64,000 nt of DNA from a phage. The notes below the pieces were generated by a model that was not told where the DNA came from, did not search any database, and worked only from the letters and a program-made list of their open reading frames with translations. The stretch lies in the NCBI GenBank assembly GCA_017822615.1, contig GCA_017822615.1_4530.1; one strand, written 5' to 3'. The position numbers were made by a program, and so were the translations under genes. Positions 10,554 through 31,259 of this stretch are shown here, piece after piece (position 1 is the first letter of the stretch; every line of letters begins with the position of its first letter).

Positions 10554-10554
10554 T

Positions 10555-15584: not shown

Positions 15585-15592
15585 TAAAACTT

Positions 15593-15617
15593 AAAGGCGC
15601 ACTTTGCGCCTTTTTTG
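15593..15617 (+). terminator. rho-independent terminator
   Basis: AAAGGCGCA-ctt-TGCGCCTTT then TTTTTT. Confidence 0.6.
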
Positions 15618-15687
15618 ATTTCCCTCAAAGCTTTTTTCGGTTGAAAGAGGTAGAATAATAGTTCTACTCACAAAATAAGGATTAATA

Positions 15688-17502: not shown

Positions 17503-17969
17503 ATTTTGCAGGATATGAACCTGTAGATCTTATTAATGGTGAGGGAGTTAGGTGCTCCCTCTGGGTTAGTGGTTGTAGCCACGGTTGTCGTGGCTGTTTT
17601 AACCAGAAAGCCTGGTCTTATTCTTATGGGAAACCGTTCACTAACGAAAATGTAGAGCAAGTTTTAAAAGATTTGTCAAGACCGTTTGTAAAAGGTTTAA
17701 CAATTTTAGGAGGAGAACCATTAGATCCGCAGAATATTTACAATGTTAAAAACCTTATAGAAAAGGTTAGAGACGTTTATGGGTCAAGCAAAGATATAAT
17801 GGTGTATACAGGATATACTTTTGAGGAAGTGCCTTTGTATATTAAAAATCTTGTTGACATTATTGTAGACGGAAAGTATGAAATAAACAATCCAACCACA
17901 AAACCTTTCAGAGGGTCAGATAATCAAAGATTATGGACCAAAACGGCGAGTGGTTGGCAATCAGATTAG
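17499..17969 (+). CDS. nrdG: anaerobic RNR activating enzyme (radical SAM)
   Basis: CSLWVSGCSHGCRGCFN cysteine cluster; ATGA overlap with nrdD. Confidence 0.8.
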   Translation: MNFAGYEPVDLINGEGVRCSLWVSGCSHGCRGCFNQKAWSYSYGKPFTNENVEQVLKDLSRPFVKGLTILGGEPLDPQNIYNVKNLIEKVRDVYGSSKDIMVYTGYTFEEVPLYIKNLVDIIVDGKYEINNPTTKPFRGSDNQRLWTKTASGWQSD

Positions 17970-17982
17970 CGTAGGAGGTTTT

Positions 17983-18174
17983 ATGGTTACATATTTTGCT
18001 GTAGGAGATAGGGTAGGGACGGCAGGAGAACTTTTGAAGAACAGTGATCGGGACGTTAAGGACATTCTTGCAACCCTTGTGGATATTTTACAAAGAAAAG
18101 AGTTGCTTTCTGATCGAGATGTTGCTAAATTACTTGATATCGGAGGAGATGAACTTCAAAGACTTCCATTTTAA
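17983..18174 (+). CDS. hypothetical protein
   Basis: start moved to ATG 17983 after GTAGGAGG RBS. Confidence 0.35.
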   Translation: MVTYFAVGDRVGTAGELLKNSDRDVKDILATLVDILQRKELLSDRDVAKLLDIGGDELQRLPF

Positions 18175-18189
18175 GTGAGGAGATAAGTA

Positions 18190-18795
18190 ATGCAACATAG
18201 TGTAGTAGTCAACATGCCGAATAGTGGGGATAAATCTTTTGGTGTCCCTGCTAAAAAAGTGTGGAAAGCCCATTTTCATCTTACTTTATCTAACGTTAGT
18301 TCTGAAGAGTTGATGAAAGCAGCTAAGATCATTGGTGCCAAATGCACAACAATTGATTTACATCGGGATACAAAGTCTCAACGTGATCGTATGTTAACAA
18401 AGTATCAAAGCGATCTCGACACTACGTTAATGTTGCAATGTGTAGAAAAACTTGAGAACGCAGGTTTCAATGTTGTTCGTTACAAACTGGAACGAATGTT
18501 TAAACATGTTGCCTGTGTTCTTTTCATGGATCTAAGCAAAGAAAATTACGGAGAAGTTCACATTAAAACTTCAGCAAGTGATCCTGAAGTAGAAACAAAC
18601 TTCTTCCGTATTTCTTCTAATGCTGAAGAACTTGATTACCGATTTTACAATGCTCGCTTATATTCCGCAGAAGATAAGTTGCGTTTCAATGAAGCATATG
18701 ATATGCTCTTGAACAGTGGGATACAGATAAAAGGCTACCACATAGAACAAGTTGTGGTAGACAGTAACTTAAATCTTGATGCGTGGTGGGCCTAG
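18190..18795 (+). CDS. hypothetical protein
   Basis: 201 aa, GAGGAG RBS. Confidence 0.45.
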   Translation: MQHSVVVNMPNSGDKSFGVPAKKVWKAHFHLTLSNVSSEELMKAAKIIGAKCTTIDLHRDTKSQRDRMLTKYQSDLDTTLMLQCVEKLENAGFNVVRYKLERMFKHVACVLFMDLSKENYGEVHIKTSASDPEVETNFFRISSNAEELDYRFYNARLYSAEDKLRFNEAYDMLLNSGIQIKGYHIEQVVVDSNLNLDAWWA

Positions 18796-18796: not shown

Positions 18797-19453
18797 ATGA
18801 CAATAAAACATATTTCTTTTGATGTATGGAATACTCTTATTTCTGCCAATCAAAACTATGCAGATGCACGTACGCACACTATTGCTACATATGGTAGAAT
18901 GTCTGAACGTGCGGCAAAAGAAGCATATAAAGATGCCAAAGAAATTATGGATAATGCTGCACTAAATGGGTGTGCAGAAGGTGTAGCATATGCATGGAAT
19001 ATGTTGGGAAGAAAGATAGGTTTAACCCCTGTAGAATCTGCACAAATGCGTTTTGAGTGTGAGCAATGGTTTCTTAAATTTCCTCCACATATCGCTTTAG
19101 ATTTGCCAGTTTGTTTGCTATACTTGTCTGGTAAATATGATCTTAGTATTAAAAGCAATACTAATTTTATATCTGGGAATATTTTGCGTCGTGCTTGTAT
19201 GTTCGACAGTTGGAATTGTTTTGAATTTATGCATTTTTCAGACGAACATCTGTTATGTAAACCAGATCCTAGATTCTTTGTTAGGACCGCCACATATTCA
19301 AGCATTCCTTTGAAGGCTGAAGAGATTTTACATGTTGGGGACAGCGAAGAATTTGATGGTAAATGTGTTGACATAGGGATTAACTTCTGTCATATTAAGA
19401 ACCCTAACGATTTACTAGAGAAACTTAAAAGAGGAGAAATTGTAAATGCGTAA
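18797..19453 (+). CDS. HAD-superfamily hydrolase (phosphatase/nucleotidase-like)
   Basis: N-terminal FDVWNTL (HAD motif I DxDxT-like) and C-terminal HVGDSEEFD (motif IV). Confidence 0.5.
   Translation: MTIKHISFDVWNTLISANQNYADARTHTIATYGRMSERAAKEAYKDAKEIMDNAALNGCAEGVAYAWNMLGRKIGLTPVESAQMRFECEQWFLKFPPHIALDLPVCLLYLSGKYDLSIKSNTNFISGNILRRACMFDSWNCFEFMHFSDEHLLCKPDPRFFVRTATYSSIPLKAEEILHVGDSEEFDGKCVDIGINFCHIKNPNDLLEKLKRGEIVNA
19368..19396 (+). promoter_or_regulatory. sigma70-like promoter inside 3' end of HAD gene
   Basis: TTGACA (19368-19373) N17 CATATT. Confidence 0.3.
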
Positions 19454-20273
19454 TCAAACTCAAATTTTTGCAAATAAATTTGATGACCTGGAAACTGCTA
19501 CTTTTGATATCAAAGACTATTCAAAATTGAAATTTGGTAGTAACCAAGCTGCGCGTCGTATGGGTAAAGAATTGGCACTTCAGTTTTTTGCTCAAGTGGC
19601 AATGAAACATATTGGGGAACAATTTGTTATCATCCCTTCTCCTTATAACCATGTGCACAATGCTGCAACAATGATGACAGATCATTTTATTAATTACTTT
19701 AATATGTTGCAAGCACAATATGATCAAGGTCGTTCAGCAGAACTGGATATTATTCATCGTAAAGTTAGCTATATCAACGATTATGGTTTCTTGGATAAAG
19801 CTAGTCGTAAGAAACTTATTGATGGGGATACATTCTACTGCAACAAAGAATTCTGGGGTGATAAGAAGCTTGTGTTCATTGATGATGTAAATATCACCGG
19901 AACTCATGAAGACAAACTGATTGAGATTCTTGATGAAAATCAAGTTAAAAATGATGTTTACTTCTTGTATTTTGCAAAATATGAAGGTAATCAAGCAGAT
20001 ACTGAAGCTAAACTGAATTTTAACTACATCAATACACCAGAAGCGTTTGTTAAAATGATTAATGAAGAACGTGATGCACAGTGTCTTGTTCGTCCTATTA
20101 AGTATCTTATGGGCCAAAATCACGAAGACTTCAAAATCATTCTTAGCCAATTGCCACACTACTATGTAGAGCAACTTTTCTTCGGATGTTTGGGAGAAGG
20201 TTACAACCGAATTTCAAAGTATGCTGAAAACTTTGAATTCTTGGATCGTTACACAAAACAACACATTCTGTAA
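19446..20273 (+). CDS. phosphoribosyltransferase (PRTase)-like protein
   Basis: KKLVFIDDVNITGTHED matches the type I PRTase PRPP-binding loop pattern. Confidence 0.5.
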   Translation: MRNQTQIFANKFDDLETATFDIKDYSKLKFGSNQAARRMGKELALQFFAQVAMKHIGEQFVIIPSPYNHVHNAATMMTDHFINYFNMLQAQYDQGRSAELDIIHRKVSYINDYGFLDKASRKKLIDGDTFYCNKEFWGDKKLVFIDDVNITGTHEDKLIEILDENQVKNDVYFLYFAKYEGNQADTEAKLNFNYINTPEAFVKMINEERDAQCLVRPIKYLMGQNHEDFKIILSQLPHYYVEQLFFGCLGEGYNRISKYAENFEFLDRYTKQHIL

Positions 20274-20286
20274 TAAGGAGCTAAAA

Positions 20287-20760
20287 ATGCTTAAAATGAA
20301 AACAGGTAATCTTATTGATGCCGCTAAAGCAGGTGAAGTAACTGTTATTGCTCATTGTTGCAATTGTATGTGTAATATGGGAGCAGGAATTGCTCCGCAA
20401 ATTAAACGAGCATTCCCTTATGCATATGCGGCAGATTTAGACACAATGGCTGGTGATCAAAGTAAGTTAGGTTCTTTTAGTTTAGGGGTGCCAGACGAAC
20501 AATCAGACCCTTTGGTATATAATCTATACGGGCAATACCGTTACGGATACAATGCTAAAGGTCGTCAGTTGGACTATGATGCACTTTACGATGCACTAAT
20601 AGCTATGGCTAATGATTTGCTTCTCCGTGACCAAAAATGTAAGATCGGTTTACCTATGATTGGAGCGGGACATGCCGGAGGTAATTGGGCTATCATCCAA
20701 GTGATGATTGAAGAAACTTTAGTAAAAACAGGTCACGATGTGACTATTTATAAACTTTAA
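20287..20760 (+). CDS. macro-domain protein (ADP-ribose binding/hydrolase)
   Basis: start moved to ATG 20287 after AAGGAG; VIAHCCNCMCNMGAGIAPQI and GLPMIGAGHAGGNW match macro-domain glycine-rich loops. Confidence 0.65.
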   Translation: MLKMKTGNLIDAAKAGEVTVIAHCCNCMCNMGAGIAPQIKRAFPYAYAADLDTMAGDQSKLGSFSLGVPDEQSDPLVYNLYGQYRYGYNAKGRQLDYDALYDALIAMANDLLLRDQKCKIGLPMIGAGHAGGNWAIIQVMIEETLVKTGHDVTIYKL

Positions 20761-20772
20761 GAGGAGATTAGT

Positions 20773-20994
20773 ATGGGTGTTTTTGCAGGTATTGTTGCAG
20801 TGGTAAGCTTTTTTGTTATTGCTTTTATGCTTAGTTTGATTCCAGCTTGGTTACTGTTGCTGGCTTACAACTATGTTGCTGAAGTTATGGGTCATGCAGA
20901 TATCACTGTCCCAGTAACCTTCTGGACCGTGGTTTGTGTTTCGTTTATTTTGGCGGTATTACGAGGAATCTTTTCCTCTCATTCAACAAAATAA
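20773..20994 (+). CDS. small membrane protein
   Basis: 73 aa, two hydrophobic helices. Confidence 0.45.
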   Translation: MGVFAGIVAVVSFFVIAFMLSLIPAWLLLLAYNYVAEVMGHADITVPVTFWTVVCVSFILAVLRGIFSSHSTK

Positions 20995-20997
20995 GTG

Positions 20998-21025
20998 TTG
21001 ACATAGTTCTTAAAAAGAGTAAGAT
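20998..21025 (+). promoter_or_regulatory. sigma70-like promoter upstream of terC
   Basis: TTGACA (20998-21003) N16 TAAGAT (21020-21025); leader contains GCGGGGA-atagt-TCCCCGC hairpin at 21038-21056. Confidence 0.5.
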
Positions 21026-21073
21026 ATATCACATGAAGCGGGGAATAGTTCCCCGCAAAGAGAGGAGAAAAGA

Positions 21074-22048
21074 ATGCAACTCGGTTTCCCAATTATTGAT
21101 GTAGTTGTTTTAGTTGGTATTTTAGCATTGTCTATTGGTATCGATTTCTTTGGTCATAAAGAGAATAAAGAAATTGGAATTAAATCTGCTTTGCTTTGGT
21201 CTGTTTTTTGGATTGCTTTAGCTTTAGGGTATTACGCATTCATTTGGGTAGAACATGGTAAAGAGTTTGCCGCGCTTTTCCTAAGTGGCTATGTGTTGGA
21301 AAAGAGTCTTTCTGTAGATAACCTAATGGTGTTCATGGCAATTTTTGCAAGCTTTGGAATTAAGAGCACACATCTCCAACATAAGATTCTACTTTGGGGG
21401 ATTGCAGGAGCCATTGTCTTCCGAGGTATTTTTGTTGCAGCAGGGACCGCTTTGTTTAACCTTCATTGGTCGGTCCAAGTGTTGTTCGGTTTGATTGTAG
21501 CTTGGTCTGCCGTGGCTATCATCAAAGGTGGTGACGAAGAAGAGGATATTGATTACTCTAAACATTGGGCTGTTCGTTTAGTAGGTAAAGTTATGCCTGT
21601 GCACAATGCACCGGATGGTGAAAAGTTCATCACCATTAAGAATGGTATTAAATATGCAACTCCTGCTCTTCTTTGTGTGTTTGTTATTGAGCTTACAGAT
21701 ATTGTCTTCTCTTTTGATTCAGTTCCGGCTGTGATCGGTGTGACACAAGAACCTCTGCTAGTTTATTCTGCAATGCTGATGGCTGTTCTTGGTTTACGTG
21801 CACTTTTCTTTGTGTTAAGTGTAGCTGTGAAATATCTGGTTCACTTAGAGAAAGCTGTTGCTGTGGTTCTGGTGTTTGTTGGTGCTAAACTTATGTATCA
21901 CCCGTTCGGTGAAACACTTCATGCCAAGTGGTCATTCCTCCCGCATGATATTTCCCCTAACGTAAGTCTGATGATTGTTCTAGGCACATTATCTCTTGGT
22001 GTTATTGCAAGCTTTATCTTCCCTGAAAAAGAAGAAGCTACTGTTTAA
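21074..22048 (+). CDS. terC: TerC-family integral membrane protein
   Basis: 324 aa polytopic membrane protein with the TerC signature EKSLSVDNLMVF. Confidence 0.8.
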   Translation: MQLGFPIIDVVVLVGILALSIGIDFFGHKENKEIGIKSALLWSVFWIALALGYYAFIWVEHGKEFAALFLSGYVLEKSLSVDNLMVFMAIFASFGIKSTHLQHKILLWGIAGAIVFRGIFVAAGTALFNLHWSVQVLFGLIVAWSAVAIIKGGDEEEDIDYSKHWAVRLVGKVMPVHNAPDGEKFITIKNGIKYATPALLCVFVIELTDIVFSFDSVPAVIGVTQEPLLVYSAMLMAVLGLRALFFVLSVAVKYLVHLEKAVAVVLVFVGAKLMYHPFGETLHAKWSFLPHDISPNVSLMIVLGTLSLGVIASFIFPEKEEATV

Positions 22049-22054
22049 TAAATG

Positions 22055-22080
22055 AGCCTCCTTCGGGAGGCTATTTTATA
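22055..22080 (+). terminator. rho-independent terminator
   Basis: AGCCTCC-ttcg-GGAGGCT then ATTTTAT. Confidence 0.6.
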
Positions 22081-22090
22081 GGAGAGACTT

Positions 22091-22441
22091 ATGAGTAATT
22101 TTGATGAAATTCAAGAACTTGTTTGGGATTTATCTGGTGATGTGGATTACGTTTTAGATTATCTTTCAAAAGTTTACCCTGGGGTAAGCGTTATGATCGT
22201 GACCAAAGATCCAATTAATTTGCCTCCTAATGTGGTAGCTTGTTGTGGGAGTGGTTCAGGGGAAGTGGAGCCTGTATCCCGTTGGGAATTAACTAAAGCT
22301 GTTTCAAAACGAAACGGTGAAGTTTTGAATATTGATATCGAGCAAATATGGACTTCTCCAGCAGCTAAATGGAATGATCCGAATGGTTGGGACTTGTTCT
22401 TCTGGGATAATGAAACTGATGATGAGGTATTTTTAAAATGA
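22091..22441 (+). CDS. hypothetical protein
   Basis: 116 aa. Confidence 0.45.
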   Translation: MSNFDEIQELVWDLSGDVDYVLDYLSKVYPGVSVMIVTKDPINLPPNVVACCGSGSGEVEPVSRWELTKAVSKRNGEVLNIDIEQIWTSPAAKWNDPNGWDLFFWDNETDDEVFLK

Positions 22442-22683
22442 AATACTTGTTGGTTGTGTTTGAAAATATTTGTTTTGCAATAGGGTTGTTTGTTGTAATT
22501 TTTGTATTGACAAGCGTAATCAACGGCAGTAAAGTGAGTTTATACCGAGATGGAGAGCAACTTTATTGCTTCTCTGGAGATTTCAAACACAGATGTATTA
22601 ATAGCCAAAACGAGGAAAGCAAATATGAAAAAACTAGCCCTGATTTTAATTGGTTGTATCTTTTTAACAGCTTGCGAGGATGA
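22438..22683 (+). CDS. possible small membrane protein (overlaps lipoprotein gene start)
   Basis: 81 aa, hydrophobic N-terminus; contains an internal promoter-like TTGACA-N17-TAAAGT at 22507-22535. Confidence 0.3.
   Translation: MKYLLVVFENICFAIGLFVVIFVLTSVINGSKVSLYRDGEQLYCFSGDFKHRCINSQNEESKYEKTSPDFNWLYLFNSLRG
22507..22535 (+). promoter_or_regulatory. sigma70-like promoter upstream of lipoprotein gene
   Basis: TTGACA N17 TAAAGT. Confidence 0.35.
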
Positions 22684-23062
22684 AACAAATCCTGCACAAT
22701 ACCAACAACCTCCTCAACAATACGCTCAACAAGGATCTGACGGAGATACAACTATTATCAACAATGGTGGCGGTTCTAGTAGTAGCGGTGTTGGTGAGTT
22801 TGCTACAGGTATGTTGTTAGGGCATATGATGAGTGGCGGTAGTAATCGTAGCAGTGGGGATTATAACGATAACAGAACGATTATTAATAAGCATTATAAT
22901 ACACCTAAACCGAAAACTAATTTTTATAGTAAGCCTAAACAAGAGATAAAAACTTATGAAAAGCCGAGACAAACTTTTAAAACAAATAGTAGCTATACAA
23001 CTCGTAAATCTTACAATAGCCCTTTAAGTAAAAAGAGTTCATCTCGTAGCAAGCGACGTTAA
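22625..23062 (+). CDS. lipoprotein (Q/S/N-rich)
   Basis: start moved to ATG 22625; MKKLALILIGCIFLTAC lipobox; low-complexity C-terminus. Confidence 0.55.
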   Translation: MKKLALILIGCIFLTACEDETNPAQYQQPPQQYAQQGSDGDTTIINNGGGSSSSGVGEFATGMLLGHMMSGGSNRSSGDYNDNRTIINKHYNTPKPKTNFYSKPKQEIKTYEKPRQTFKTNSSYTTRKSYNSPLSKKSSSRSKRR

Positions 23063-23076
23063 TAAGGAGAAAAACA

Positions 23077-23670
23077 ATGACAATTTCTATTCGTACTTCC
23101 ATCGTAGGTGTTAAAAGGTTGCCTAATGCTTTGCAAATCACACGCGCTTTGAGGGATACATTCTCTGCTGTGGACGAGCATAAGATGCTTGATAATCTTT
23201 CAAATTGGCCCTATTTCCATTATTTTAAAAATGAAGATGACGAGTTTATAGACGCTGTTTCTTATGGTTATGATTTCGGTAAGGAGGTTTCTGCTGAAGA
23301 ATTTGTAGCTATGGTGTTCCCAAACGGTTTGCCTACTCGCAGTAAACGTAAAAAAGGACCAAAAAACAAGAAACGTGCTACTAATAAAGCTACCATTTTC
23401 TTTACTGATGGCACACAATATACGATTAAAGATTTTGAAGAGGTATCTTATACAGCAGGTGGGAATCTTTCTTTCTACACCATCAAAAAACAAAACTCTA
23501 CGTTCAGCCATGTTTCTAACATGATTGAAATGTTAGTAGAAGATATTGAAAGCGTAGCTGTGTTAGGTATGCATAAAAGCTTTTTAATTACAAATATTTC
23601 AGATTTCAGTGCACGTTTATCTGGTCCTGATTTTGAAACCACGACCACGCATTTCACTTTTAAGGTGTAA
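23077..23670 (+). CDS. hypothetical protein
   Basis: 197 aa, basic patch SKRKKGPKNKKR. Confidence 0.45.
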   Translation: MTISIRTSIVGVKRLPNALQITRALRDTFSAVDEHKMLDNLSNWPYFHYFKNEDDEFIDAVSYGYDFGKEVSAEEFVAMVFPNGLPTRSKRKKGPKNKKRATNKATIFFTDGTQYTIKDFEEVSYTAGGNLSFYTIKKQNSTFSHVSNMIEMLVEDIESVAVLGMHKSFLITNISDFSARLSGPDFETTTTHFTFKV

Positions 23671-23673
23671 GTT

Positions 23674-24264
23674 ATGTATACCGAGAGAGACTTGCAACTC
23701 TTGTGGTGGGAAGTGATGCAGGAAATAAAAGAAGATTTTCCTGTTTACTACAACATGTTACGTGAAGCAGGATATAAAGCTTGTGTTAGAAACAAAGTGA
23801 ATAACTCTTTCGGTTGGTGCAACTACCGAGATAAAATTGTTGTTGTAAATTGGCACTTGCATAAGAACTCTACAAGAGATATGATCGTGGATACAATGAA
23901 GCACGAAATTGCTCATGCTATTGATGGTTGTATGGGTAAGTTTAGTAGACACGGTGCTCATTGGCAAAAACTGGCAGCAGAGTTAGGGGCTAATCCTAAA
24001 GCCACTTCCAAAGAGCCGTTGAACCACGAATATAAATATGTTCTTGTTCTGGTAGATAGGTTTGCGACAAGATGTGTTAGAGGTTATAATCGTAAACCTA
24101 ATCGCATGTACCCAGGTAAGCAACCTAATATGTGGTTGAAATCAGATAAAGAAGGGACCGAAGGAAAATTATGGTTGTATAAATGGGACGATTGGGTTAA
24201 AGTAGCTAAAGAGTACGGTGTTTCACCATATATAAGAGATGCAGAAGAGGAGAATGAAGAATGA
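23674..24264 (+). CDS. SprT-like zinc metallopeptidase
   Basis: HExxH motif in MKHEIAHAIDGC plus downstream His/Cys. Confidence 0.5.
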   Translation: MYTERDLQLLWWEVMQEIKEDFPVYYNMLREAGYKACVRNKVNNSFGWCNYRDKIVVVNWHLHKNSTRDMIVDTMKHEIAHAIDGCMGKFSRHGAHWQKLAAELGANPKATSKEPLNHEYKYVLVLVDRFATRCVRGYNRKPNRMYPGKQPNMWLKSDKEGTEGKLWLYKWDDWVKVAKEYGVSPYIRDAEEENEE

Positions 24265-25373
24265 CAAGTCCATTTTTAAAAGCAGCTACTGGCGGTCAGA
24301 AGAAGCCTGAAATGAGCGTATTTGCTGCAACAACAGATGCAAGTAAATCTGTATTCGCTCCAAGCGTGTTAGATGCCAGTCCTGTTTATGCACCAGCGGC
24401 ACCGCAAGAAGTTCCAGTTTTGCCTTCTATGACCCGACAAGAGATCGAAGAGATTGGGGCAGAGGCAGGAACAACCTTGCGTTCCTTGAATGCCGAGGTA
24501 TTAAAACATCAACGTAGTAATCAAGGCGATCAGATGAGTGAACGACTCACAGCTTTGATTAAACAGGCAAAACAACTTGATCCAAACTCTATTAAACAAA
24601 GCAAGGGTATTACTAAACTCATTAAAAAAGTTATGGGTATGAAAGAAGATCTGTTTGGGGAGTTTGATAATGTTAATAACCGTATTGAAGAGTTGGTAAA
24701 AAACCTTCAAATGGATATTCGCAAAGAAGAAGATTCCTTGGTATATCTTGAAAAGCTACATCAAGCTATTGGACAATATGCTGCAAGTTTGAACCGAGAT
24801 ATGCAGCTTCTAACAGCAACCTATGAAAAAGAAGAACAAGCTTTGGCTGCTCTTCCAGAAGATGCAGTAGAACAGCGACAAGTGATCCGAGATACTTTGG
24901 ATCTTCTGGAGATTCGTATTGCAGATTTAAAAGCATTGCGCCTACTGTGTGTCCAAATGGGACCGCGTGTACAAGGTATGCAAAAAGTTTCTGCAAGCTT
25001 AATGCGATCTGCGCGTAACATAGTAAATAATGTTATTCCTGCTTACTCTGCTAACTTCTCAATGTATATCGAGAGCTTACGTCAAATGAAAGCAGCAGAG
25101 ACGCAGAATAACGTTCTTGATGAATTTAACCTGGCAATTAAACTGGGTAGCGATCTTGCCACACAGAATCAGATCGAAGCAGCAGCACTGGCTAACCGTC
25201 AAGTGTTGGATATTGAAACTCTGCGTCACGATCAGGAAAACTTGGTTAAGATGTTGGAAGAAACTAACCGCATCAATACGGAAGCCCGTGCTGCTCGTGT
25301 TGATTATATTAATGAAGTTCAATCTTTGGAAGACGGGATGGTAGCTGCTGTGAAACGAGGGCTTGGTAAATGA
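24261..25373 (+). CDS. TelA-like (toxic anion resistance family) coiled-coil protein
   Basis: 370 aa largely helical; size, composition and ter-locus context suggest TelA; assignment by recollection only. Confidence 0.4.
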   Translation: MTSPFLKAATGGQKKPEMSVFAATTDASKSVFAPSVLDASPVYAPAAPQEVPVLPSMTRQEIEEIGAEAGTTLRSLNAEVLKHQRSNQGDQMSERLTALIKQAKQLDPNSIKQSKGITKLIKKVMGMKEDLFGEFDNVNNRIEELVKNLQMDIRKEEDSLVYLEKLHQAIGQYAASLNRDMQLLTATYEKEEQALAALPEDAVEQRQVIRDTLDLLEIRIADLKALRLLCVQMGPRVQGMQKVSASLMRSARNIVNNVIPAYSANFSMYIESLRQMKAAETQNNVLDEFNLAIKLGSDLATQNQIEAAALANRQVLDIETLRHDQENLVKMLEETNRINTEARAARVDYINEVQSLEDGMVAAVKRGLGK

Positions 25374-25570
25374 GAATCCGTATCTATATAATTGATGAGG
25401 ACATTGGTGTCCGTTATGATGACGAAAAACGATTCGCGCCGATGGGAGGCATATATCCCCCAAGTGTTCTAGCAGTTTGTCGTGATTGTTATATTTATGA
25501 AGGTTGTCGTAACTTCCGTAAATTCGAACTCCTTGCAGATATTGACTTCAATGAGGAGGAGGAGGAGTAA
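25370..25570 (+). CDS. hypothetical protein
   Basis: 66 aa, acidic C-terminus. Confidence 0.4.
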   Translation: MRIRIYIIDEDIGVRYDDEKRFAPMGGIYPPSVLAVCRDCYIYEGCRNFRKFELLADIDFNEEEEE

Positions 25571-25743
25571 TGAAAATATTACGAGTGAATATTGAAACTG
25601 CTTGGTGTGGATGCAATGAGGTTGTGGATATCGAAATTGAAGATGATATGTCTCAAGAGGATATAGAAGATCTTGCACACGAAACCTTTCAGGACTATTG
25701 TAATTACGGGTTCCATATTTTAGAGGAGGAAGAGGATGTTTAA
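25570..25743 (+). CDS. small hypothetical protein (57 aa)
   Basis: not in track; TAATG junction upstream and ATG overlap downstream. Confidence 0.35.
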   Translation: MKILRVNIETAWCGCNEVVDIEIEDDMSQEDIEDLAHETFQDYCNYGFHILEEEEDV

Positions 25744-25939
25744 CTACGATAACGACCCTAATATTATCCAGTTAACCCGACAAGAACTGATCACAATCAT
25801 TGAAGATGCTTTTATTGATGGCTGGAATACACAAGACAATGATTGGGGTGGACCCGAAGCTTTTCTGGAACATCATAAAGCTTATGGAGAATTTTGTGAA
25901 ACCACTGTAGCTCTTGATAATCTGAAGGAGGGTTTGTAA
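25736..25939 (+). CDS. hypothetical protein
   Basis: 67 aa. Confidence 0.4.
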   Translation: MFNYDNDPNIIQLTRQELITIIEDAFIDGWNTQDNDWGGPEAFLEHHKAYGEFCETTVALDNLKEGL

Positions 25940-26502
25940 TGGGTTGTTTTAGCTTTTTGTGCAAAGAATCGGGCAAAGCTGCCCTTTCTACTTCTTTCGA
26001 CGGATCACCTTGTTATCTCTTTCTTTTGAAGGACGGTGTTGTTATTGAAGAGATGTATGGCAACTATGATAGTTATGGTTGTGTTTTCTCTGGAAAGGAG
26101 GATGAAAATGGCGTTCGTGAACGGTTCGAATGGGCTATGGATTGGGGTAAGGTTTGTGATTTAATGCATTCCTCGAATCCAAGGGATGGTATCGCTATGG
26201 TGCTGGAAGAGTATTTTACAGGTGAAATCCCTACAGAACAATCTGACGGAGATCCTAACCAAGGTTGGGGTGATGGCGAAGAAGATCCAGATTGTTTTTT
26301 CAGCACAGAAAAGAATAAGTTTAAACGTGTTGACAACCCTTATCACAAAGTGCATAATACTCTCATTGAAACAGAAGATGACAAGATGGAAATTGAAGAA
26401 GATGATCCTCTTGTAACACTTCCTATAAGTGAGTTACAAAAGATCACTAAGGAAGCTTACGATTTGGGCTTCAAAATTGGTAGAGGAGGTATGCGTGTTT
26501 AG
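25939..26502 (+). CDS. acidic hypothetical protein
   Basis: 187 aa. Confidence 0.45.
   Translation: MGCFSFLCKESGKAALSTSFDGSPCYLFLLKDGVVIEEMYGNYDSYGCVFSGKEDENGVRERFEWAMDWGKVCDLMHSSNPRDGIAMVLEEYFTGEIPTEQSDGDPNQGWGDGEEDPDCFFSTEKNKFKRVDNPYHKVHNTLIETEDDKMEIEEDDPLVTLPISELQKITKEAYDLGFKIGRGGMRV
26330..26358 (+). promoter_or_regulatory. sigma70-like promoter (internal to preceding gene)
   Basis: TTGACA (26330-26335) N17 CATAAT (26353-26358). Confidence 0.4.
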
Positions 26503-26773
26503 ATTCAATATTCAAGAAGAAAAAAGTCAGGATTTACCTATTGCTTTCGAAGATCTTGACGTAGGGGCCACATTCATGTATTATGATGCCTATGAAGACG
26601 CAGGGTTGGATACCTACCGTAACTTGGTGTTCATTAAAAATTCCACAAACAGTGCGATTTGTATTAATGGATCACTAGCACAACGAGGCTATACTCATTG
26701 CATCCCACCAGATACAAATATGGTGGAAGTAGATTTAGAAGTTACCAATATTACACTTAAGAAGGAGAAATAA
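26495..26773 (+). CDS. small protein, paralog A of a duplicated family
   Basis: GTG start after GAGGAGG; shares FxIxEEK...DLDVGxTFxY...GLD...EVxLxVTxITLK with 27795..28064. Confidence 0.45.
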   Translation: MFRFNIQEEKSQDLPIAFEDLDVGATFMYYDAYEDAGLDTYRNLVFIKNSTNSAICINGSLAQRGYTHCIPPDTNMVEVDLEVTNITLKKEK

Positions 26774-26774
26774 T

Positions 26775-27569
26775 ATGTCCGAGAAAATCAGCCTGAAAAA
26801 ACGTCAAGAAAACCTTGCTTTCTCTCTGAAAAAGAATAAGAACCTGAATGAAGGTAAGATTGTTCTTCGTGTAGCATGTGCTCTAGATATTTCTGGTAGT
26901 ATGCATGGTCTATATTCTAGTGGGGTAGTGAGTGATTTTGTAGGTAAACTGCTTCCTTTTGGTATGCTGTTCGACGATAATCAACAAATTGATATGTGGG
27001 CCTTCAATACGAGTTCCCAAGAGCTTACTCCAGCAACAGCAGACGTTTACGATGACTATGTTGGTAAATGTATGCGTAATGTTCGTATCGGAGGTGGAAC
27101 AAATTACGCCCCTGTAATGGCAGATATCTACGATGAGTATTTTGGCACTGTTACCAAATATATTACCACTAAACAAGTGGTACAAGAGGAGGCTCCAAAG
27201 AAAGGCTTCTTTAATCGTCTGCTTGGTAAAACTGAAACAGTATCTGTAGAGCGTGAAAAGGTTGTAGCTGTGTCTGAACCAGGTGCTGACGTTACCCCTG
27301 GTGTTGTATTCTTCCAGACGGATGGTGAGAATGGTGATCCTAGTGCTGTTCGTCGTCTTATTGAAGAGAATAAGAATAAACCTATTTATTGGTTCATGGT
27401 TGGCGTTGGTAATGAGAAGTTTGGCTTCCTGAAAGAACTGGCAAATGCTTATGATAATGTTGGTTTTATTGGCATTAAAGATTTAGACTTGACAGATTCA
27501 GAGCTTTATGACAAACTCTTATCTGAAGAGTTCGGAGAGTGGGTTGTTAAAGTAGGTGCTAAAAAATGA
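26775..27569 (+). CDS. vWA-domain protein (TerY-like)
   Basis: MIDAS motif DISGSM with downstream GGTNYAP; N-terminus KISLKK...FSLKK resembles TerD N-terminus. Confidence 0.6.
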   Translation: MSEKISLKKRQENLAFSLKKNKNLNEGKIVLRVACALDISGSMHGLYSSGVVSDFVGKLLPFGMLFDDNQQIDMWAFNTSSQELTPATADVYDDYVGKCMRNVRIGGGTNYAPVMADIYDEYFGTVTKYITTKQVVQEEAPKKGFFNRLLGKTETVSVEREKVVAVSEPGADVTPGVVFFQTDGENGDPSAVRRLIEENKNKPIYWFMVGVGNEKFGFLKELANAYDNVGFIGIKDLDLTDSELYDKLLSEEFGEWVVKVGAKK

Positions 27570-27814
27570 TCGACGAGCTTGCCTCTCAAGTCATAGAAAA
27601 TTATTGGCGCGAGAGAGAAGCTTTCATTATGCGCAGTCTCAAAGAGTATTTCATTGGGACTGTGCGAATGGAAGATATTGTAAGTAGAGTAGAGATTCAT
27701 GTATGGCCTGATTATGAAGAATGGGTTGACAAAGAAAATGAAAATGCTATAATTCTTCGTATATACAAACCGGAGATAACATTAGGAGGAAGAAGTGTTA
27801 AACTTCGAAATTGA
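27566..27814 (+). CDS. hypothetical protein
   Basis: 82 aa, ATGA overlap. Confidence 0.4.
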   Translation: MIDELASQVIENYWREREAFIMRSLKEYFIGTVRMEDIVSRVEIHVWPDYEEWVDKENENAIILRIYKPEITLGGRSVKLRN

Positions 27815-28064
27815 TGAGCAAAAAGTAAATAAACGATGCCTTACCATTAAAGATTTGGATGTAGGAGATACTTTCGTCTATGAAAATGCATTTGACGAAA
27901 ATGGTTTAGACCTTAGTGAAATCATTGTTTATTTAAAAGTAGATGATGGGGAAAATGATTATTCTGCTGTAGAACTAAACCATCATGCACAATTAGTATC
28001 AATCCAAAACACATCTAAGCTTTTGGAAGTAGAATTGACTGTAACTGGTATTACACTTAAATAA
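27795..28064 (+). CDS. small protein, paralog B of a duplicated family
   Basis: GTG start after AGGAGG; see paralog A. Confidence 0.45.
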   Translation: MLNFEIDEQKVNKRCLTIKDLDVGDTFVYENAFDENGLDLSEIIVYLKVDDGENDYSAVELNHHAQLVSIQNTSKLLEVELTVTGITLK

Positions 28065-28079
28065 TAGAGGAGACAAAAG

Positions 28080-28682
28080 ATGACTGATAAAATTTCCCTG
28101 AAAAAAGGTTCTAGCGAAAAAATTTCCCTGAAGAAAGTTGCTCCGGCTCTGAAAGAACTGCGTCTGGAATTCTCTTGGAAATCTGATTCTAAACTGGATC
28201 TGGATGTAAGTGCACTGGTTTGTCGTCACAATGCCGCTGGCAATCCTGAAATGCTGTCTGCACGTCATCTGGTTTGCTATGCTAACAAGTTTGATCCTGA
28301 ACGTTCTACCTTCGCTGGTGACGATGTTCGTGATGGAACTGGCAGCATGGAGCAGATTGATATTACTCTGGCTAAAATCTCTCCTGATGCACAAGAGATT
28401 GCCTTTGTTCTGACCATTGAGGATGATACAGGTCTGAAACGTTTTGGTCATGCTTCTGAAGGTATGCTTAAAATCTTCGACTCCGAGCGCAATGTGGAAA
28501 TTCTGGATTTTGACTTCCTGGCTCCTGAAGTAGCTGGCAACACAATCTGCCACGTGGCTTCCCTGGTTCGTGAAGATGGAGAATGGAAGCTGAAAGCATA
28601 TGGTGTAGGTAAAGCTGGTCTGGATATTTGCGATGTGGTGATGGCCTTCGGTGGTAAAAAAGAATGGTATGAATGTCCATAA
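28080..28682 (+). CDS. terD: TerD-family protein
   Basis: 200 aa aligns end to end with canonical TerD: N-terminal ISLKKG..ISLKK, LDLDVSALV, GDDVRDGTG, DGEWKLKAYGVGKAGL. Confidence 0.85.
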   Translation: MTDKISLKKGSSEKISLKKVAPALKELRLEFSWKSDSKLDLDVSALVCRHNAAGNPEMLSARHLVCYANKFDPERSTFAGDDVRDGTGSMEQIDITLAKISPDAQEIAFVLTIEDDTGLKRFGHASEGMLKIFDSERNVEILDFDFLAPEVAGNTICHVASLVREDGEWKLKAYGVGKAGLDICDVVMAFGGKKEWYECP

Positions 28683-28781: not shown

Positions 28782-29588
28782 TTGCTGATAAAAAACTTTG
28801 TAACAGTTGCGTTACTATCCTTAACTGCTTTTACATTTACACCTGTTGTGGCGAAAGCCGAAGCTGCAAACGTAAAAACCGCTAAAGTAGTTCACAAATG
28901 TACAAAGCAATATAATGATAAAATTCTATTAGCTTGTGCAATTTACGCAGAAGGTCGCGGTCTGGGTAAAAAAGGAATGAATGCCGTTGGGAATGTGGTA
29001 ATCAACAGAAGAAATGATGCCTACTTCCCTAACACAGTCAAGGGAGTCTTGTTCCAGAAAGGGCAATTCTCATATGCGAAAACTTTTAACGTGACAGAGA
29101 AAGATAAGTGGCAGGAAGCAAAAGCAATAGCGGAGCGTTTACTTTATTTAGAGAAACATTTTCCTGAATTGCGGTCTGTTTTAGATGTTACTAAAGGTGC
29201 TCTATACTTCAAGAAACGGAATATAAGGACACACTGGGAGCGTGATATGCGTCTTGTTTATCGAGATAAAGTGCATGGTTTCTATCTACCAAAGGGAGTT
29301 AAAATGCAAGAAGATAATACTGTTGTTGTAGCAAGTTACCTGGTTGTCGGTCTTACCGAAGAGGACGTATACTACACCCGTAAACATTTGGAAGCATACG
29401 CTACTTTGTTTATGGAAGATGAAAAGGATGTAGATAAATATAGCATTGATATGATCAACGACAGTATTTATCCTTGTATGGTTCTTAAAGTAGATGCTGT
29501 GCTGTGGGAGCGTTTTGCAAGGACTCATGATGCTGTAGAATGCTCCGCAGTAATGTCTCAAAACAACATTTTAGGGGAGATTCACTGA
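28782..29588 (+). CDS. cell-wall hydrolase (SleB/CwlJ-like) with N-terminal signal/SAR segment
   Basis: TTG start after AAGGAGG; hydrophobic N-terminus then LLACAIYAEGRG...VGNVVINRR...QKGQFSY matching the SleB-type hydrolase core. Confidence 0.5.
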   Translation: MLIKNFVTVALLSLTAFTFTPVVAKAEAANVKTAKVVHKCTKQYNDKILLACAIYAEGRGLGKKGMNAVGNVVINRRNDAYFPNTVKGVLFQKGQFSYAKTFNVTEKDKWQEAKAIAERLLYLEKHFPELRSVLDVTKGALYFKKRNIRTHWERDMRLVYRDKVHGFYLPKGVKMQEDNTVVVASYLVVGLTEEDVYYTRKHLEAYATLFMEDEKDVDKYSIDMINDSIYPCMVLKVDAVLWERFARTHDAVECSAVMSQNNILGEIH

Positions 29589-30003: not shown

Positions 30004-30567
30004 ATGATTTATTATATTACTCCCTATCTGACAGGAAATATCGGCAAGGCTATCAATGAAGCTATTGCCGTTCTTCCAGATGATAGTTGGGTGTGCTTAA
30101 GAGATACCGATACAATGTTCCTCCTGCCTGATCAACCATCTATGCTTGAAGAGCTTATTATGTCAAACCCGCCTTTTGATGTAATAGGTGCAACTTGTAA
30201 CAGGTTAGGTAGTGGTTATCAGCTTTTCTCTAACCAAATTAACGATGATCCAAATATTCTAAACCATATAGAATATGCTAAGATTGCAAGAGAATATCAT
30301 AAAGTGAGTGTTGAAGAAGTTCCTTTCGGAACACCTCTGGCAGGTTTCTTTTTGCTTTTTAGAAAATCATTGTGGAATGAAATTCCTTTCGAAGAAAAAT
30401 CTATCCAATTCGACCTAATTTTCTCTCGCACTTTACATGAAAAAGGAAAAAGGTTAGGATTGATGCGGGGAATGTATCTGTTTCACATTTACAGATTAGG
30501 TCAAACAAATCCTCAACGGTCTATACATCATTTATTACACTGTCACGATCACAGTAAAACTATCTAG
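30004..30567 (+). CDS. putative glycosyltransferase
   Basis: 187 aa with DTD acidic motif; weak. Confidence 0.3.
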   Translation: MIYYITPYLTGNIGKAINEAIAVLPDDSWVCLRDTDTMFLLPDQPSMLEELIMSNPPFDVIGATCNRLGSGYQLFSNQINDDPNILNHIEYAKIAREYHKVSVEEVPFGTPLAGFFLLFRKSLWNEIPFEEKSIQFDLIFSRTLHEKGKRLGLMRGMYLFHIYRLGQTNPQRSIHHLLHCHDHSKTI

Positions 30568-30575
30568 GAGAGAAA

Positions 30576-31259
30576 ATGGAAAATATTAAAATCGGAGTGG
30601 GTGTTATCACTGTAGGTGTCCGTCCACTTAAAGACTATCTTGTAACAGATCCACATGCAGATTTTCGAGTATTCAACGATCCAGATCGTAAAGGTGTAGC
30701 TTACGCCAGGAATGAACTTATGCACCAGTTTTATGAAGAAGGTTATGATTATTGGTTTATTTTTGACGACGATTGCTACCCAATCATGGAGGGATGGGAA
30801 ACATATTTTGTAGATCAAGCTGTCTCTGGAGGATGGGATTTCTTTGGTATGCCGGAGTATTTCAAAGATAAAGTTGTTGGGAGTAAAGGAGAAGTTATTC
30901 TCTGGGAACTTGCAATGTGTCAATTTGCAATGTATTCTCGTGCCGTTGTTGAGAAGATGGGTTATTTCCGCCCTTACACTCACGGCTATGGTTTTGAAGA
31001 TGCTGAATGGGTACACCGTTTGAAAGCTGCTGGTTTGAATCAGGGCATTCAGGCAATACCTTGTCCACTTCGTATCATGGCTTATATCCACCCAGACGAT
31101 GTTTTTGGAAACAATCCTATGCCTTTTGCTAATCTGACAAAAGAAGAGAAAGAAGCTGCTATTGGCATTAACTGGGAAGAATATAAAGCGTCTTTAGAAG
31201 ATATTAAAAATGGGAAAATCCGAATTTCTTATGAGGAGGCACTGGCACATGTCAAATAA
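30576..31259 (+). CDS. glycosyltransferase, GT-A (family 2-like)
   Basis: GVAYARN and FIFDDDCYP (DxD) motifs. Confidence 0.5.
   Translation: MENIKIGVGVITVGVRPLKDYLVTDPHADFRVFNDPDRKGVAYARNELMHQFYEEGYDYWFIFDDDCYPIMEGWETYFVDQAVSGGWDFFGMPEYFKDKVVGSKGEVILWELAMCQFAMYSRAVVEKMGYFRPYTHGYGFEDAEWVHRLKAAGLNQGIQAIPCPLRIMAYIHPDDVFGNNPMPFANLTKEEKEAAIGINWEEYKASLEDIKNGKIRISYEEALAHVK

What the first reader, a model, noticed from the sequence alone, without database searches (positions are those of the whole stretch)
18797..28682. Tellurite-resistance-type Ter-domain module on a virulent phage
Within 10 kb of one operon lie a TerD protein (28080-28682, aligns end to end with canonical TerD), a TerC membrane protein (21074-22048, EKSLSVDN motif), a vWA protein with a DxSGS MIDAS motif and a TerD-like KISLKK N-terminus (TerY-like), a TelA-like coiled-coil protein, a PRTase-like enzyme and a HAD hydrolase, plus a macro domain, a lipoprotein and a SprT-like peptidase. 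In bacteria TerD, TerC, TelA, vWA, PRTase and HAD co-occur in ter loci linked to tellurite, phage and colicin resistance and predicted to make a nucleoside-like metabolite. A near-complete module inside a lytic phage replication region suggests the phage supplies its own Ter system during infection.
Basis: partly seen in the sequence, partly recalled or inferred. Interest (0 to 1): 0.85.

Follow-up and report, generated by a model that had tools for sequence, protein, structure and literature searches.

The report
Known Ter gene block in phAPEC8-like phage
The window comes from a phAPEC8-like (Phapecoctavirus) E. coli phage and does carry TerC, TelA, a TerF-type vWA protein, TerD and a HAD–phosphoribosyltransferase pair, but the same block is present, annotated and already discussed in over a hundred related phages, so it is real and untested rather than new.

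Summary
Observation confirmed. Profile searches recover PRTase_3 (6e-42), TerC (1e-40), TelA (3e-33), vWA-TerF-like (2e-37), TerD (4e-28), SprT-like, a macro domain, a weaker HAD, and a lipoprotein (true start probably 22625).

The window is 99.9% identical to Escherichia phage ESCO13. The 9.9-kb block is found at 95% identity or more in about 61 phage records. All the Ter-type genes recur in the same order in Justusliebigvirus.

The idea is already published. The ZCKP1 paper describes a phage with a 98.4% identical block and proposes colicin resistance and superinfection exclusion. Iyer et al. 2021 describe phage Ter systems that include PRTase and HAD.

Refinements from this work:
- It is not one operon: a strong terminator follows terC.
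- The vWA protein is TerF-C-like, not TerY-like.
- The TerD Ca2+-binding loop is degenerate.
- HAD–PRTase_3 is an autonomous, translationally coupled two-gene cassette, also found without Ter genes in Rhizobium phages and rhizobial plasmids.
- TelA–vWA–TerC–TerD is a separate compact core in unrelated phages.
- The macro domain is TARG1/DarG-like and probably a separate counter-defence gene.

Function is inferred: envelope protection or superinfection exclusion. Low novelty.

The parts
18797..19453 (+). HAD-superfamily hydrolase with motif I FDVWNTL (Asp+2 replaced by Trp). It overlaps the PRTase start by 8 nt.
   Evidence: Pfam Hydrolase 1.4e-3, below the gathering score. NCBIfam HAD-IA REG-2-like 1.2e-8. 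PHROG 14393 'hydrolase'. PDB 2om6 carries the identical FDVWNTL. Motifs I-IV are conserved in all PRTase_3-linked homologues.
19446..20273 (+). Type-I phosphoribosyltransferase of the Ter-associated ComF-like family (PRTase_3), with an intact PRPP loop VFIDDVNITGTHE.
   Evidence: PF15610 6.1e-42, full length. D146, D147, T151 and G152 are invariant in alignment A1. dN/dS 0.07 against phiWec190.
20287..20760 (+). Stand-alone macro domain of the TARG1/DarG/SCO6735 type. Probably an ADP-ribosyl hydrolase and a neighbour rather than a Ter component.
   Evidence: Pfam Macro 9.6e-5. PDB 5e3b 1e-12, DarG 5m31 9e-7, TARG1 4e-6. NCBIfam DarG 4.5e-9. PADLOC DarG 1.6e-10. 41% identical to a gene next to Prs/Nampt in phiPsa397.
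20773..20994 (+). 73-aa hydrophobic (membrane) protein between macro and terC.
   Evidence: Translation. Conserved in Justusliebigvirus at 60%. No Pfam hit.
21074..22048 (+). TerC/Alx-family integral membrane protein. Both signature motifs are intact (EKSLSVDN and DxxFxxDSVPA).
   Evidence: PF03741 1.2e-40. TIGR03718 at 318 bits against a cut-off of 246. 47% identical over its full length to IncHI2 plasmid terC.
22055..22072 (+). Intrinsic terminator-like hairpin (AGCCTCCTTCGGGAGGCT followed by a T-run) directly after terC. It splits the block into at least two transcription units.
22625..23062 (+). Predicted lipoprotein (MKKLALILIGCIFLTAC..., lipobox LTAC) with a Gly/Ser-rich and basic tail.
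   Evidence: Lipobox and RBS analysis. Homologues in Justusliebigvirus and Klebsiella phage 05F01. PHROG 21570 matches a longer form.
23674..24264 (+). SprT-like zinc metallopeptidase (HEIAH). Its stop overlaps the telA start.
   Evidence: PF10263 4.2e-9. 43% identical homologue in Klebsiella phage 05F01. dN/dS 0.06.
24261..25373 (+). TelA-family protein.
   Evidence: PF05816 3.2e-33, residues 59-361. Homologues in 225 phage records. dN/dS 0.03.
26495..26773 (+). 92-aa protein of unknown function directly upstream of the vWA gene. It is a paralogue of 27795-28064, which lies directly upstream of terD.
   Evidence: BLASTP 34% identity, 2e-14. Conserved before the vWA gene in three Stephanstirmvirinae lineages.
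26775..27569 (+). vWA domain protein of the TerF C-terminal type with complete MIDAS residues.
   Evidence: PF10138 1.6e-37. 28% identity, 2e-20, to the C-terminal half of IncHI2 TerF, against only 0.07 to TerY. dN/dS 0.06.
27726..27753 (+). Perfect sigma-70 consensus (TTGACA, 16-nt spacer, TG-TATAAT) upstream of 27795-28064 and terD.
   Evidence: This is a consensus match only.
28080..28682 (+). Single TerD-domain protein with a duplicated N-terminal KISLKK motif and a degenerate Ca2+-binding loop (GDDVRDGTGSMEQ instead of GDNxTGxGDGDDE).
   Evidence: PF02342 4.4e-28. PDB 2kxt 1.2e-15. Loop comparison. dN/dS 0.07.

Best explanation
This is the conserved accessory 'Ter block' of Stephanstirmvirinae phages (Phapecoctavirus, Justusliebigvirus and relatives). 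It consists of two separable parts that sit side by side in the early/middle region, between the anaerobic ribonucleotide reductase genes and the endolysin.

Part 1 is the membrane-associated core: TerC, TelA, the TerF-type vWA protein and TerD. The same four genes form a compact operon in unrelated phages.

Part 2 is a translationally coupled HAD–PRTase_3 pair. It probably makes a phosphoribosylated small molecule and perhaps dephosphorylates it.

The identities of these proteins are shown here. The function is inferred, as follows. During infection, TerC (a TerC/Alx-type divalent-cation transporter) alters the inner membrane together with small membrane proteins and a lipoprotein. TelA, the MIDAS-containing vWA protein and TerD assemble beneath the membrane. 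The infected cell thereby becomes refractory to membrane-directed insults, namely DNA injection by superinfecting phages and pore-forming colicins. This mirrors the phage-inhibition and colicin-resistance phenotypes of plasmid ter loci. The HAD–PRTase product may act as a ligand or signal for this assembly, but the link between the two parts is the weakest step.
For: Identity:
- Pfam and NCBIfam hits with E-values from 1e-28 to 1e-42.
- TerC is 47% identical to plasmid terC, and the vWA protein matches the TerF C-terminus.

The genes are maintained by selection:
- The block is present in at least 65 Phapecoctavirus records.
- It is syntenic in Justusliebigvirus.
- It is partly conserved in Klebsiella phage 05F01.
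- dN/dS is 0.03-0.14.

The core is a functional unit: TelA–vWA–TerC–TerD are adjacent in Otagovirus phiPsa397 and in Brevundimonas phage Kabachok. TerD–vWA–TerC are adjacent in a Neobacillus prophage-like element.

The region has an envelope theme. TerC, two small hydrophobic proteins, a lipoprotein, a signal-peptide endolysin and four glycosyltransferases lie within 14 kb.

The literature gives the phenotype basis and the same hypothesis (PMC6141743; PMC7824862; PMC9796965; PMC8386662). terD operons are transcribed in gut jumbo phages (PMC12880540).
Against: - No experiment on any phage Ter gene was found in the searchable literature.
- The HAD–PRTase_3 pair occurs without nearby Ter genes in Rhizobium phages, in Xanthomonas phage XaC1 and on rhizobial plasmids. 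It lies about 37 kb from the Ter core in Brevundimonas phage Kabachok.
- The TerD Ca2+ loop is degenerate, so metal-dependent models taken from Klebsiella TerD may not transfer.
- The HAD lacks the general-acid Asp, so the phosphatase step is uncertain.
- A terminator separates terC from telA, the vWA gene and terD.
- The neighbours (a DarG-like macro domain here; NAD-salvage and RNA-repair genes in other phages) fit a counter-defence island equally well.
Confidence: 0.45

Rival explanations
1. The region holds two unrelated cassettes. HAD–PRTase_3, perhaps with the adjacent macro domain, is an independent nucleotide, PRPP or ADP-ribose related module, either metabolic or counter-defence. It happens to lie next to the Ter core in this phage subfamily and does not feed it a ligand.
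For: - The pair is always HAD followed by PRTase with overlapping reading frames. It moves as a unit: 157 phage records include Rhizobium phages with no detectable TerD or TelA.
- It is found in Rhizobiaceae genomes and plasmids with varying neighbours and no Ter genes within 10 kb.
- It is about 37 kb from the Ter core in Kabachok.
- Klebsiella phage 05F01 keeps TelA, vWA and TerD but has no HAD, PRTase or macro gene nearby.
- Otagovirus has the Ter core and a 41% identical macro domain but no PRTase_3.
Against: - Pfam defines PRTase_3 from Ter-linked neighbourhoods.
- Two Bacteroidota genomes in the scan do have TerD or TerC within 2-7 kb of the pair.
- In the window, the pair appears to share a transcription unit with terC.
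- Brevundimonas and Caulobacter jumbo phages carry both parts.
Confidence: 0.35
2. The Ter core is a counter-defence device. It keeps the inner membrane intact and energised against host abortive-infection effectors that depolarise or permeabilise it. Its main role is not to exclude competitors.
For: - The neighbours are of counter-defence type. Here it is a DarG/TARG1-like macro domain and an AbiEi-model hit for 18190-18795.
- Prs-like plus Nampt genes (NAD reconstitution type) lie next to the Ter core in phiPsa397 and in the Neobacillus element.
- RtcB lies next to the Ter core in Kabachok.
Against: - This rests on guilt by association only.
- Early regions of large phages pack many unrelated accessory genes.
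- The AbiEi hit is not backed by Pfam or by fold.
- The window has no Nampt or Prs gene.
Confidence: 0.2
3. The block serves metal homeostasis for the phage. TerC/Alx exports or redistributes Mn2+, Zn2+ or Ca2+ during infection to suit phage metalloenzymes such as the adjacent ribonucleotide reductases. TerD and vWA act as metal buffers.
For: - TerC belongs to the TerC/Alx metal-homeostasis family, above the curated cut-off.
- K. pneumoniae terC contributes to zinc resistance (PMC12054061, title and abstract).
- The block lies directly downstream of nrdD and nrdG.
- Jug phages pair terD operons with a Ca2+-ATPase.
Against: - The TerD Ca2+ loop is degenerate in this lineage.
- There is no Mn riboswitch or other Rfam element.
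- Klebsiella phage 05F01 swaps TerC for a DUF475 protein but keeps TelA, vWA and TerD.
- This model gives no role to TelA.
Confidence: 0.1

Closest known systems
The same block in published Phapecoctavirus genomes (phAPEC8, ESCO13, ZCKP1, SF1-1 and others)
   Same: Identity is 95-99.9% over the whole 9.9 kb, with the same gene order. GenBank and RefSeq already label TelA, TerC, TerD/TerE, macro domain, VWA, hydrolase and 'orotate phosphoribosyltransferase'. The ZCKP1 paper notes four tellurite-related genes and proposes colicin resistance and superinfection exclusion.
   Different: Nothing substantive differs. Relative to ESCO13, the window has a few point differences and single-base homopolymer deletions outside the Ter genes.
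Phage Ter systems described by Iyer, Anantharaman, Krishnan, Burroughs and Aravind 2021 (jumbo phages; PMC7824862)
   Same: The component list is the same: PRTase and HAD for biosynthesis, TerD as ligand binder, TerC in the membrane, and TelA with a TerF-type vWA protein as sub-membrane parts. The proposed role in competition with superinfecting phages is also the same. The authors mention 'related smaller tailed phages'.
   Different: That paper names Acinetobacter phage ME3 and the Caulobacter jumbo phages, not the 150-kb Stephanstirmvirinae. The PRTase here is PRTase_3. Its HAD partner has a DxW motif I, and the TerD has a degenerate Ca2+ loop.
Compact TelA–vWA–TerC–TerD operons of Otagovirus (phiPsa374/397) and Brevundimonas/Caulobacter jumbo phages
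   Same: The same four families are present. TelA is 22-24% identical, vWA 26-32% and TerD 23-30%. TerC is 44% identical in Kabachok.
   Different: In those phages the four genes are contiguous. Here they are spread over 7.6 kb with about 14 unrelated genes inserted and terC in a different transcription unit. Kabachok TerD keeps the canonical GDNLTGDGDGDDE loop.
terZABCDEF plus the terWXY/biosynthetic locus of IncHI2 plasmids (R478 type) and E. coli O157
   Same: TerC is 47% identical. The vWA protein matches the TerF C-terminal domain. TerD is a family member, 25-31% identical to TerD, TerE and TerX. [quoted passage not shown]
   Different: The phage lacks TerZ, TerA, TerB, TerE, TerW, TerY, TerY-C, PP2C, the kinase, the ATP-grasp, the HpcH-type lyase and StiP. 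The plasmid locus lacks TelA and has no detectable PRTase_3 or matching HAD (E > 0.1).
Bacillus subtilis yceCDEFGH-type loci (TerD paralogues, TerC, TelA)
   Same: The combination of TerD, TerC and TelA in one locus resembles the phage set more than the enterobacterial ter operon does. This rests on my own knowledge and was not tested here.
   Different: As far as I recall, that locus has multiple TerD paralogues and no vWA or PRTase/HAD genes. This was not checked with tools.

Membership tests
Ter stress-response system in the sense of Anantharaman, Iyer and Aravind (hub plus biosynthetic arm) | TerD-domain protein | tested here: met
   PF02342 4.4e-28; PDB TerD 2kxt 1.2e-15.
Ter stress-response system in the sense of Anantharaman, Iyer and Aravind (hub plus biosynthetic arm) | TerC integral membrane protein | tested here: met
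   PF03741 1.2e-40; TIGR03718 above its cut-off; 47% identical to plasmid terC.
Ter stress-response system in the sense of Anantharaman, Iyer and Aravind (hub plus biosynthetic arm) | TelA protein | tested here: met
   PF05816 3.2e-33.
Ter stress-response system in the sense of Anantharaman, Iyer and Aravind (hub plus biosynthetic arm) | TerF-type vWA domain with MIDAS | tested here: met
   PF10138 1.6e-37. DISGS, T and TDG are present in the translation. Matches the TerF C-terminus at 2e-20.
Ter stress-response system in the sense of Anantharaman, Iyer and Aravind (hub plus biosynthetic arm) | Ter-associated PRTase with an intact PRPP-binding loop | tested here: met
   PF15610 6.1e-42; invariant DDVxITGxH.
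Ter stress-response system in the sense of Anantharaman, Iyer and Aravind (hub plus biosynthetic arm) | HAD phosphoesterase partner of the PRTase | tested here: inconclusive
   The HAD fold and motifs I-IV are present, and the gene is always adjacent to PRTase_3. However, the Pfam score is below the gathering score and the general-acid Asp+2 is Trp, so phosphatase activity is not assured.
Ter stress-response system in the sense of Anantharaman, Iyer and Aravind (hub plus biosynthetic arm) | TerB domain, ATP-grasp and C-C-bond lyase of the full biosynthetic arm | tested here: not met
   No such Pfam hits among the listed + strand ORFs of 50 aa or more between 18190 and 29588. These genes are present in the IncHI2 comparison locus.
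Ter stress-response system in the sense of Anantharaman, Iyer and Aravind (hub plus biosynthetic arm) | Confers tellurite, phage or colicin resistance; makes a nucleoside-like metabolite | not testable with these tools
   Needs genetics and metabolomics.
terZABCDEF operon (IncHI2 / E. coli O157) | Gene complement TerZ-A-B-C-D-E(-F) in one operon | tested here: not met
   Only TerC, one TerD and a TerF-C-like vWA protein have counterparts.
terZABCDEF operon (IncHI2 / E. coli O157) | Canonical TerD Ca2+-binding loop GDNxTGxGDGDDE | tested here: not met
   The window has GDDVRDGTGSMEQ. The loop is intact in IncHI2 TerD, TerE, TerZ and TerX and in Kabachok TerD.
TerY-P defence triad (TerY vWA + PP2C phosphatase + Ser/Thr kinase) | TerY-type vWA protein with an adjacent PP2C phosphatase and kinase | tested here: not met
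   The vWA protein is TerF-like, with E = 0.07 to TerY. There is no PP2C or kinase hit and no PADLOC hit for the vWA protein.
DarTG toxin-antitoxin (DarG) | Macro domain plus a C-terminal DarT-binding domain, next to DarT | tested here: not met
   The 157-aa protein matches only positions 1-147 of the 338-position DarG model and scores 36 bits against a cut-off of 250. No DarT-like neighbour was found.

The most novel reading that the evidence does not exclude
The phage Ter core (TelA–vWA–TerC–TerD) may be functionally coupled to PRPP- or ADP-ribose-derived small-molecule metabolism. It sits next to HAD–PRTase_3 and a TARG1/DarG-like macro domain here. It sits next to Prs-like plus Nampt (NAD-reconstitution-type) genes in Otagovirus and in a Neobacillus prophage-like element. 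Under this reading it acts as a phage counter-defence that senses or buffers nucleotide-derived signals at the membrane, rather than as a simple exclusion device. A tractable E. coli phage would then offer a way to find out what Ter systems actually do.
Probability: 0.12. Interest if true: 0.65.

Novelty: already known. Interest (0 to 1): 0.27.

Why it matters
The biochemical function of Ter systems is still unresolved decades after tellurite resistance was described. A compact, strongly conserved version on a virulent, easily grown E. coli phage is a convenient model for testing that function. As a discovery, though, the finding repeats what database annotations and at least two papers already state. 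Its value lies in the refinements made here:
- The block has two separable parts.
- The TerD Ca2+ loop is degenerate.
- The HAD is atypical.
- The vWA protein is TerF-type rather than TerY-type.
- Several neighbours, such as the macro domain, are probably unrelated.

Tried and rejected

2. I suspected 25939-26502, conserved between telA and the vWA gene, was a new Ter component. Its homologues lie in unrelated phage contigs without Ter genes. I rejected it as Ter-specific.

3. I looked for a yybP-ykoY Mn riboswitch before terC. There are no Rfam hits in the window.

4. I tested whether the phage PRTase and HAD are orthologous to those of the IncHI2 ter locus. There is no significant match.

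5. I examined the rhizobial neighbourhoods of HAD–PRTase_3 for a pathway clue. One plasmid has UbiA, GMC oxidoreductase, an epimerase, SMR and glycosyltransferase genes. Another genome has amino-acid metabolism, LysE and ClpP-like genes. There is no conserved context.

6. I looked for Nampt or Prs genes in the window, to match the Otagovirus and Neobacillus pattern. None were found.

7. I tried to read Anantharaman et al. 2012. The paper is not held.

8. Sequence searches of PDB with the vWA protein, TelA and the PRTase_3 profile gave no hits.

Full report
**What the window is.** The 9.9-kb region matches Escherichia phage ESCO13 (Stephanstirmvirinae, Phapecoctavirus) at 99.9% identity. 61 phage records match at 95% or more, and 65 records cover at least 80% of the region. 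RefSeq and GenBank already label several of the genes 'tellurite resistance', 'integral membrane protein TerC', 'tellurium resistance protein (TerE)', 'TelA-like', 'macro domain', 'VWA domain-containing' and 'putative orotate phosphoribosyltransferase'. The block lies between nrdD/nrdG upstream and an endolysin, four glycosyltransferases and a primase/helicase downstream.

**Check of the observation.** All genes are on the + strand with short or overlapping junctions. The Pfam results are:
- PRTase_3, 6e-42
- TerC, 1e-40
- TelA, 3e-33
- vWA-TerF-like, 2e-37
- TerD, 4e-28
- SprT-like, 4e-9
- Macro, 1e-4
- HAD, 1.4e-3 (below the gathering score)

TerC also passes the curated cut-off of NCBIfam TerC/Alx. 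It is 47% identical over its full length to the terC of IncHI2 plasmids. TerD aligns end to end with the solved Klebsiella TerD.

The HAD assignment is rescued by four lines of evidence. NCBIfam HAD-IA subfamilies hit at 1e-8. A PHROG 'hydrolase' family matches. PDB 2om6 shares the identical motif FDVWNTL. An alignment shows motifs I-IV.

The lipoprotein is real. A start at ATG 22625 with a good RBS gives MKKLALILIGCIFLTAC with an LTAC lipobox. The RefSeq start at an ATT codon looks wrong.

Three corrections follow.
- The vWA protein is of the TerF C-terminal type, not TerY. It scores 2e-20 to the TerF C-terminus and 0.07 to TerY.
- The block is not a single operon. A strong hairpin plus T-run follows terC at 22055-22072. 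A perfect sigma-70 consensus lies at 27726-27753 before terD.
- Macro, SprT and the lipoprotein are not recognised Ter components.

**Is it routine in relatives?** Yes. tblastn finds PRTase_3 in 157 phage records, TelA in 225 and TerD in 148. The identity bands match for about 70 Phapecoctavirus and about 61-67 more distant relatives, the sampled ones being mostly Justusliebigvirus-like phages. Justusliebigvirus PaulScherrer (Bas60) has HAD, PRTase, macro, the small membrane protein, TerC, the lipoprotein, TelA, the 187-aa and 92-aa unknowns, vWA, TerD and the endolysin in the same order. Against the divergent Phapecoctavirus phiWec190, dN/dS is 0.03-0.14 for TelA, TerD, vWA, PRTase_3, macro and TerC. 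dS is near saturation, so these values are approximate. The genes are kept by selection and are not decaying passengers.

**Is it already described?** Yes, at the computational level.
- The ZCKP1 paper describes a phage whose block is 98.4% identical. [quoted passage not shown]
- Iyer et al. 2021 describe phage Ter systems with exactly these parts: PRTase and HAD for biosynthesis, TerD as ligand binder, TerC in the membrane, and TelA with a TerF-type vWA protein beneath it. They propose competition with superinfecting phages and mention smaller tailed phages (PMC7824862).
- Similar clusters are noted for phiPsa374 and phiKp34.
- terD operons are transcribed in gut jumbo phages.

I found no experimental test of any phage Ter gene.

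**Anatomy: two separable parts.**

*Part 1, the Ter core.* TelA, vWA, TerC and TerD are contiguous in Otagovirus phiPsa397 and in Brevundimonas phage Kabachok. TerD, vWA and TerC are contiguous in a prophage-like element of Neobacillus vireti, which holds the closest vWA homologue that carries a bacterial name in the search. In the window the same four genes are spread over 7.6 kb with unrelated insertions.

*Part 2, HAD–PRTase_3.* In every locus examined the HAD gene lies immediately upstream of the PRTase, usually overlapping it (8 nt in the window). The pair travels alone. This is seen in Rhizobium phages, in Xanthomonas phage XaC1, about 37 kb from the Ter core in Kabachok, and in Rhizobiaceae genomes and plasmids with varying neighbours and no Ter genes within 10 kb. 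Two Bacteroidota genomes do have TerD or TerC close by. The IncHI2 ter locus has no counterpart of this PRTase, of this HAD or of TelA. Klebsiella phage 05F01, of the same subfamily, keeps TelA, vWA and TerD. It has a DUF475 protein in place of TerC and no HAD, PRTase or macro gene nearby.

**Sequence-level details that bear on mechanism.**
- The PRTase keeps the PRPP loop (VFIDDVNITGTHE; D146, D147, T151 and G152 are invariant).
- The partner HAD family always has D-x-W in motif I instead of D-x-D. It therefore lacks the usual general acid of HAD phosphatases, and the 'dephosphorylation to a nucleoside' step is an assumption.
- The vWA protein has a full MIDAS.
- TerC keeps both signature motifs.
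- The TerD of this phage subfamily has a shortened loop, GDDVRDGTGSMEQ, in place of the Ca2+-binding GDNxTGxGDGDDE. That canonical loop is intact in IncHI2 TerD, TerE, TerZ and TerX and in the Kabachok phage TerD. Metal-binding behaviour may therefore differ.
- There is no riboswitch or other Rfam element in the window.

**The macro domain.** It belongs to the TARG1/DarG/SCO6735 group (PDB 5e3b 1e-12, DarG 9e-7, TARG1 4e-6; NCBIfam and PADLOC DarG models). It lacks the DarG C-terminal half and any DarT partner. A 41% identical homologue in phiPsa397 sits between a Nampt gene and the Ter core, downstream of a Prs-like gene. It is most simply an ADP-ribosyl hydrolase used for counter-defence, and not part of the Ter function.

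**Most likely mechanism (inferred).** Early or middle in infection the phage makes TerC, small membrane proteins and a lipoprotein. It also makes a sub-membrane set consisting of TelA, the MIDAS vWA protein and TerD. By analogy with plasmid ter loci, whose phage-inhibition and colicin-resistance phenotypes are cited, this assembly would make the infected cell's envelope refractory to superinfecting phages and pore-formers. The HAD–PRTase_3 product may be a ligand for it, but the comparative data make that link the weakest step. The rivals are: two unrelated cassettes; a counter-defence role against membrane-targeting abortive infection; and metal homeostasis for phage enzymes. None can be excluded without experiments.

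**Verdict.** Novelty: already known. Interest is low to moderate, mainly as a tractable model for the unsolved function of Ter systems.

Noticed in passing
[not shown]
   Followed up: yes
[not shown]
   Followed up: yes
L025 (phiPsa397) 1-10337; L032 (Neobacillus vireti) 8404-12928: In two unrelated elements the Ter core sits next to a Prs-like gene and a Nampt gene, which resembles a phage NAD+-reconstitution pair. In phiPsa397 a macro domain 41% identical to the window's lies between them. The window itself has no Nampt or Prs gene.
   Followed up: partly
window 28702, 29293, 29996, 32356: The window has single-base deletions in homopolymer runs relative to ESCO13. The deletion at 29293 fuses the endolysin (about 28782-29303) to the next ORF, giving a 268-aa ORF. 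The deletion at 32356 splits a glycosyltransferase gene (32204-33147) into ORFs of 52 and 253 aa. These are probably assembly or sequencing errors, or recent frameshifts.
   Followed up: partly
window 26495-26773 and 27795-28064 (+): These two small ORFs (92 and 89 aa) are paralogues (34% identity, 2e-14). One lies immediately upstream of the vWA gene and the other immediately upstream of terD. Both end in ...ITLK(K), echoing the (K)ISLKK start of the vWA and TerD proteins. Function is unknown. They evolve fast (44-53% amino-acid identity to phiWec190; dN/dS about 0.36 for the 92-aa ORF).
   Followed up: partly
window 22754 versus 22625: RefSeq ESCO13 annotates the lipoprotein gene from a position that is an ATT codon in the window. 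ATG 22625, with RBS GAGGAAAG, gives a canonical lipoprotein signal peptide and is the more likely start.
   Followed up: yes
L002 (Sinorhizobium garamanticum plasmid) 2492-18780: One rhizobial copy of the HAD–PRTase_3 pair lies among glycosyltransferase, radical SAM, NAD-dependent epimerase, SMR transporter, GMC oxidoreductase and UbiA prenyltransferase genes. This set is reminiscent of polyprenyl-phospho-pentose pathways. The context is not conserved in S. kostiense (L011).
   Followed up: partly
window 30004-33147 (+): A run of four glycosyltransferase-like genes lies just downstream of the endolysin. One has a weak hit to TET-associated glycosyltransferase (1.3e-3, below the cut-off). The ZCKP1 paper suggests surface-polysaccharide modification to impede superinfection.
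   Followed up: no
L008 (MAG 'Proteobacteria bacterium' JAEZZU010000022.1): A 13-kb contig binned as a bacterial MAG encodes proteins 99.5-99.6% identical to this phage's 201-aa protein, HAD and PRTase. This is phage sequence mis-binned into a bacterial genome.
   Followed up: no
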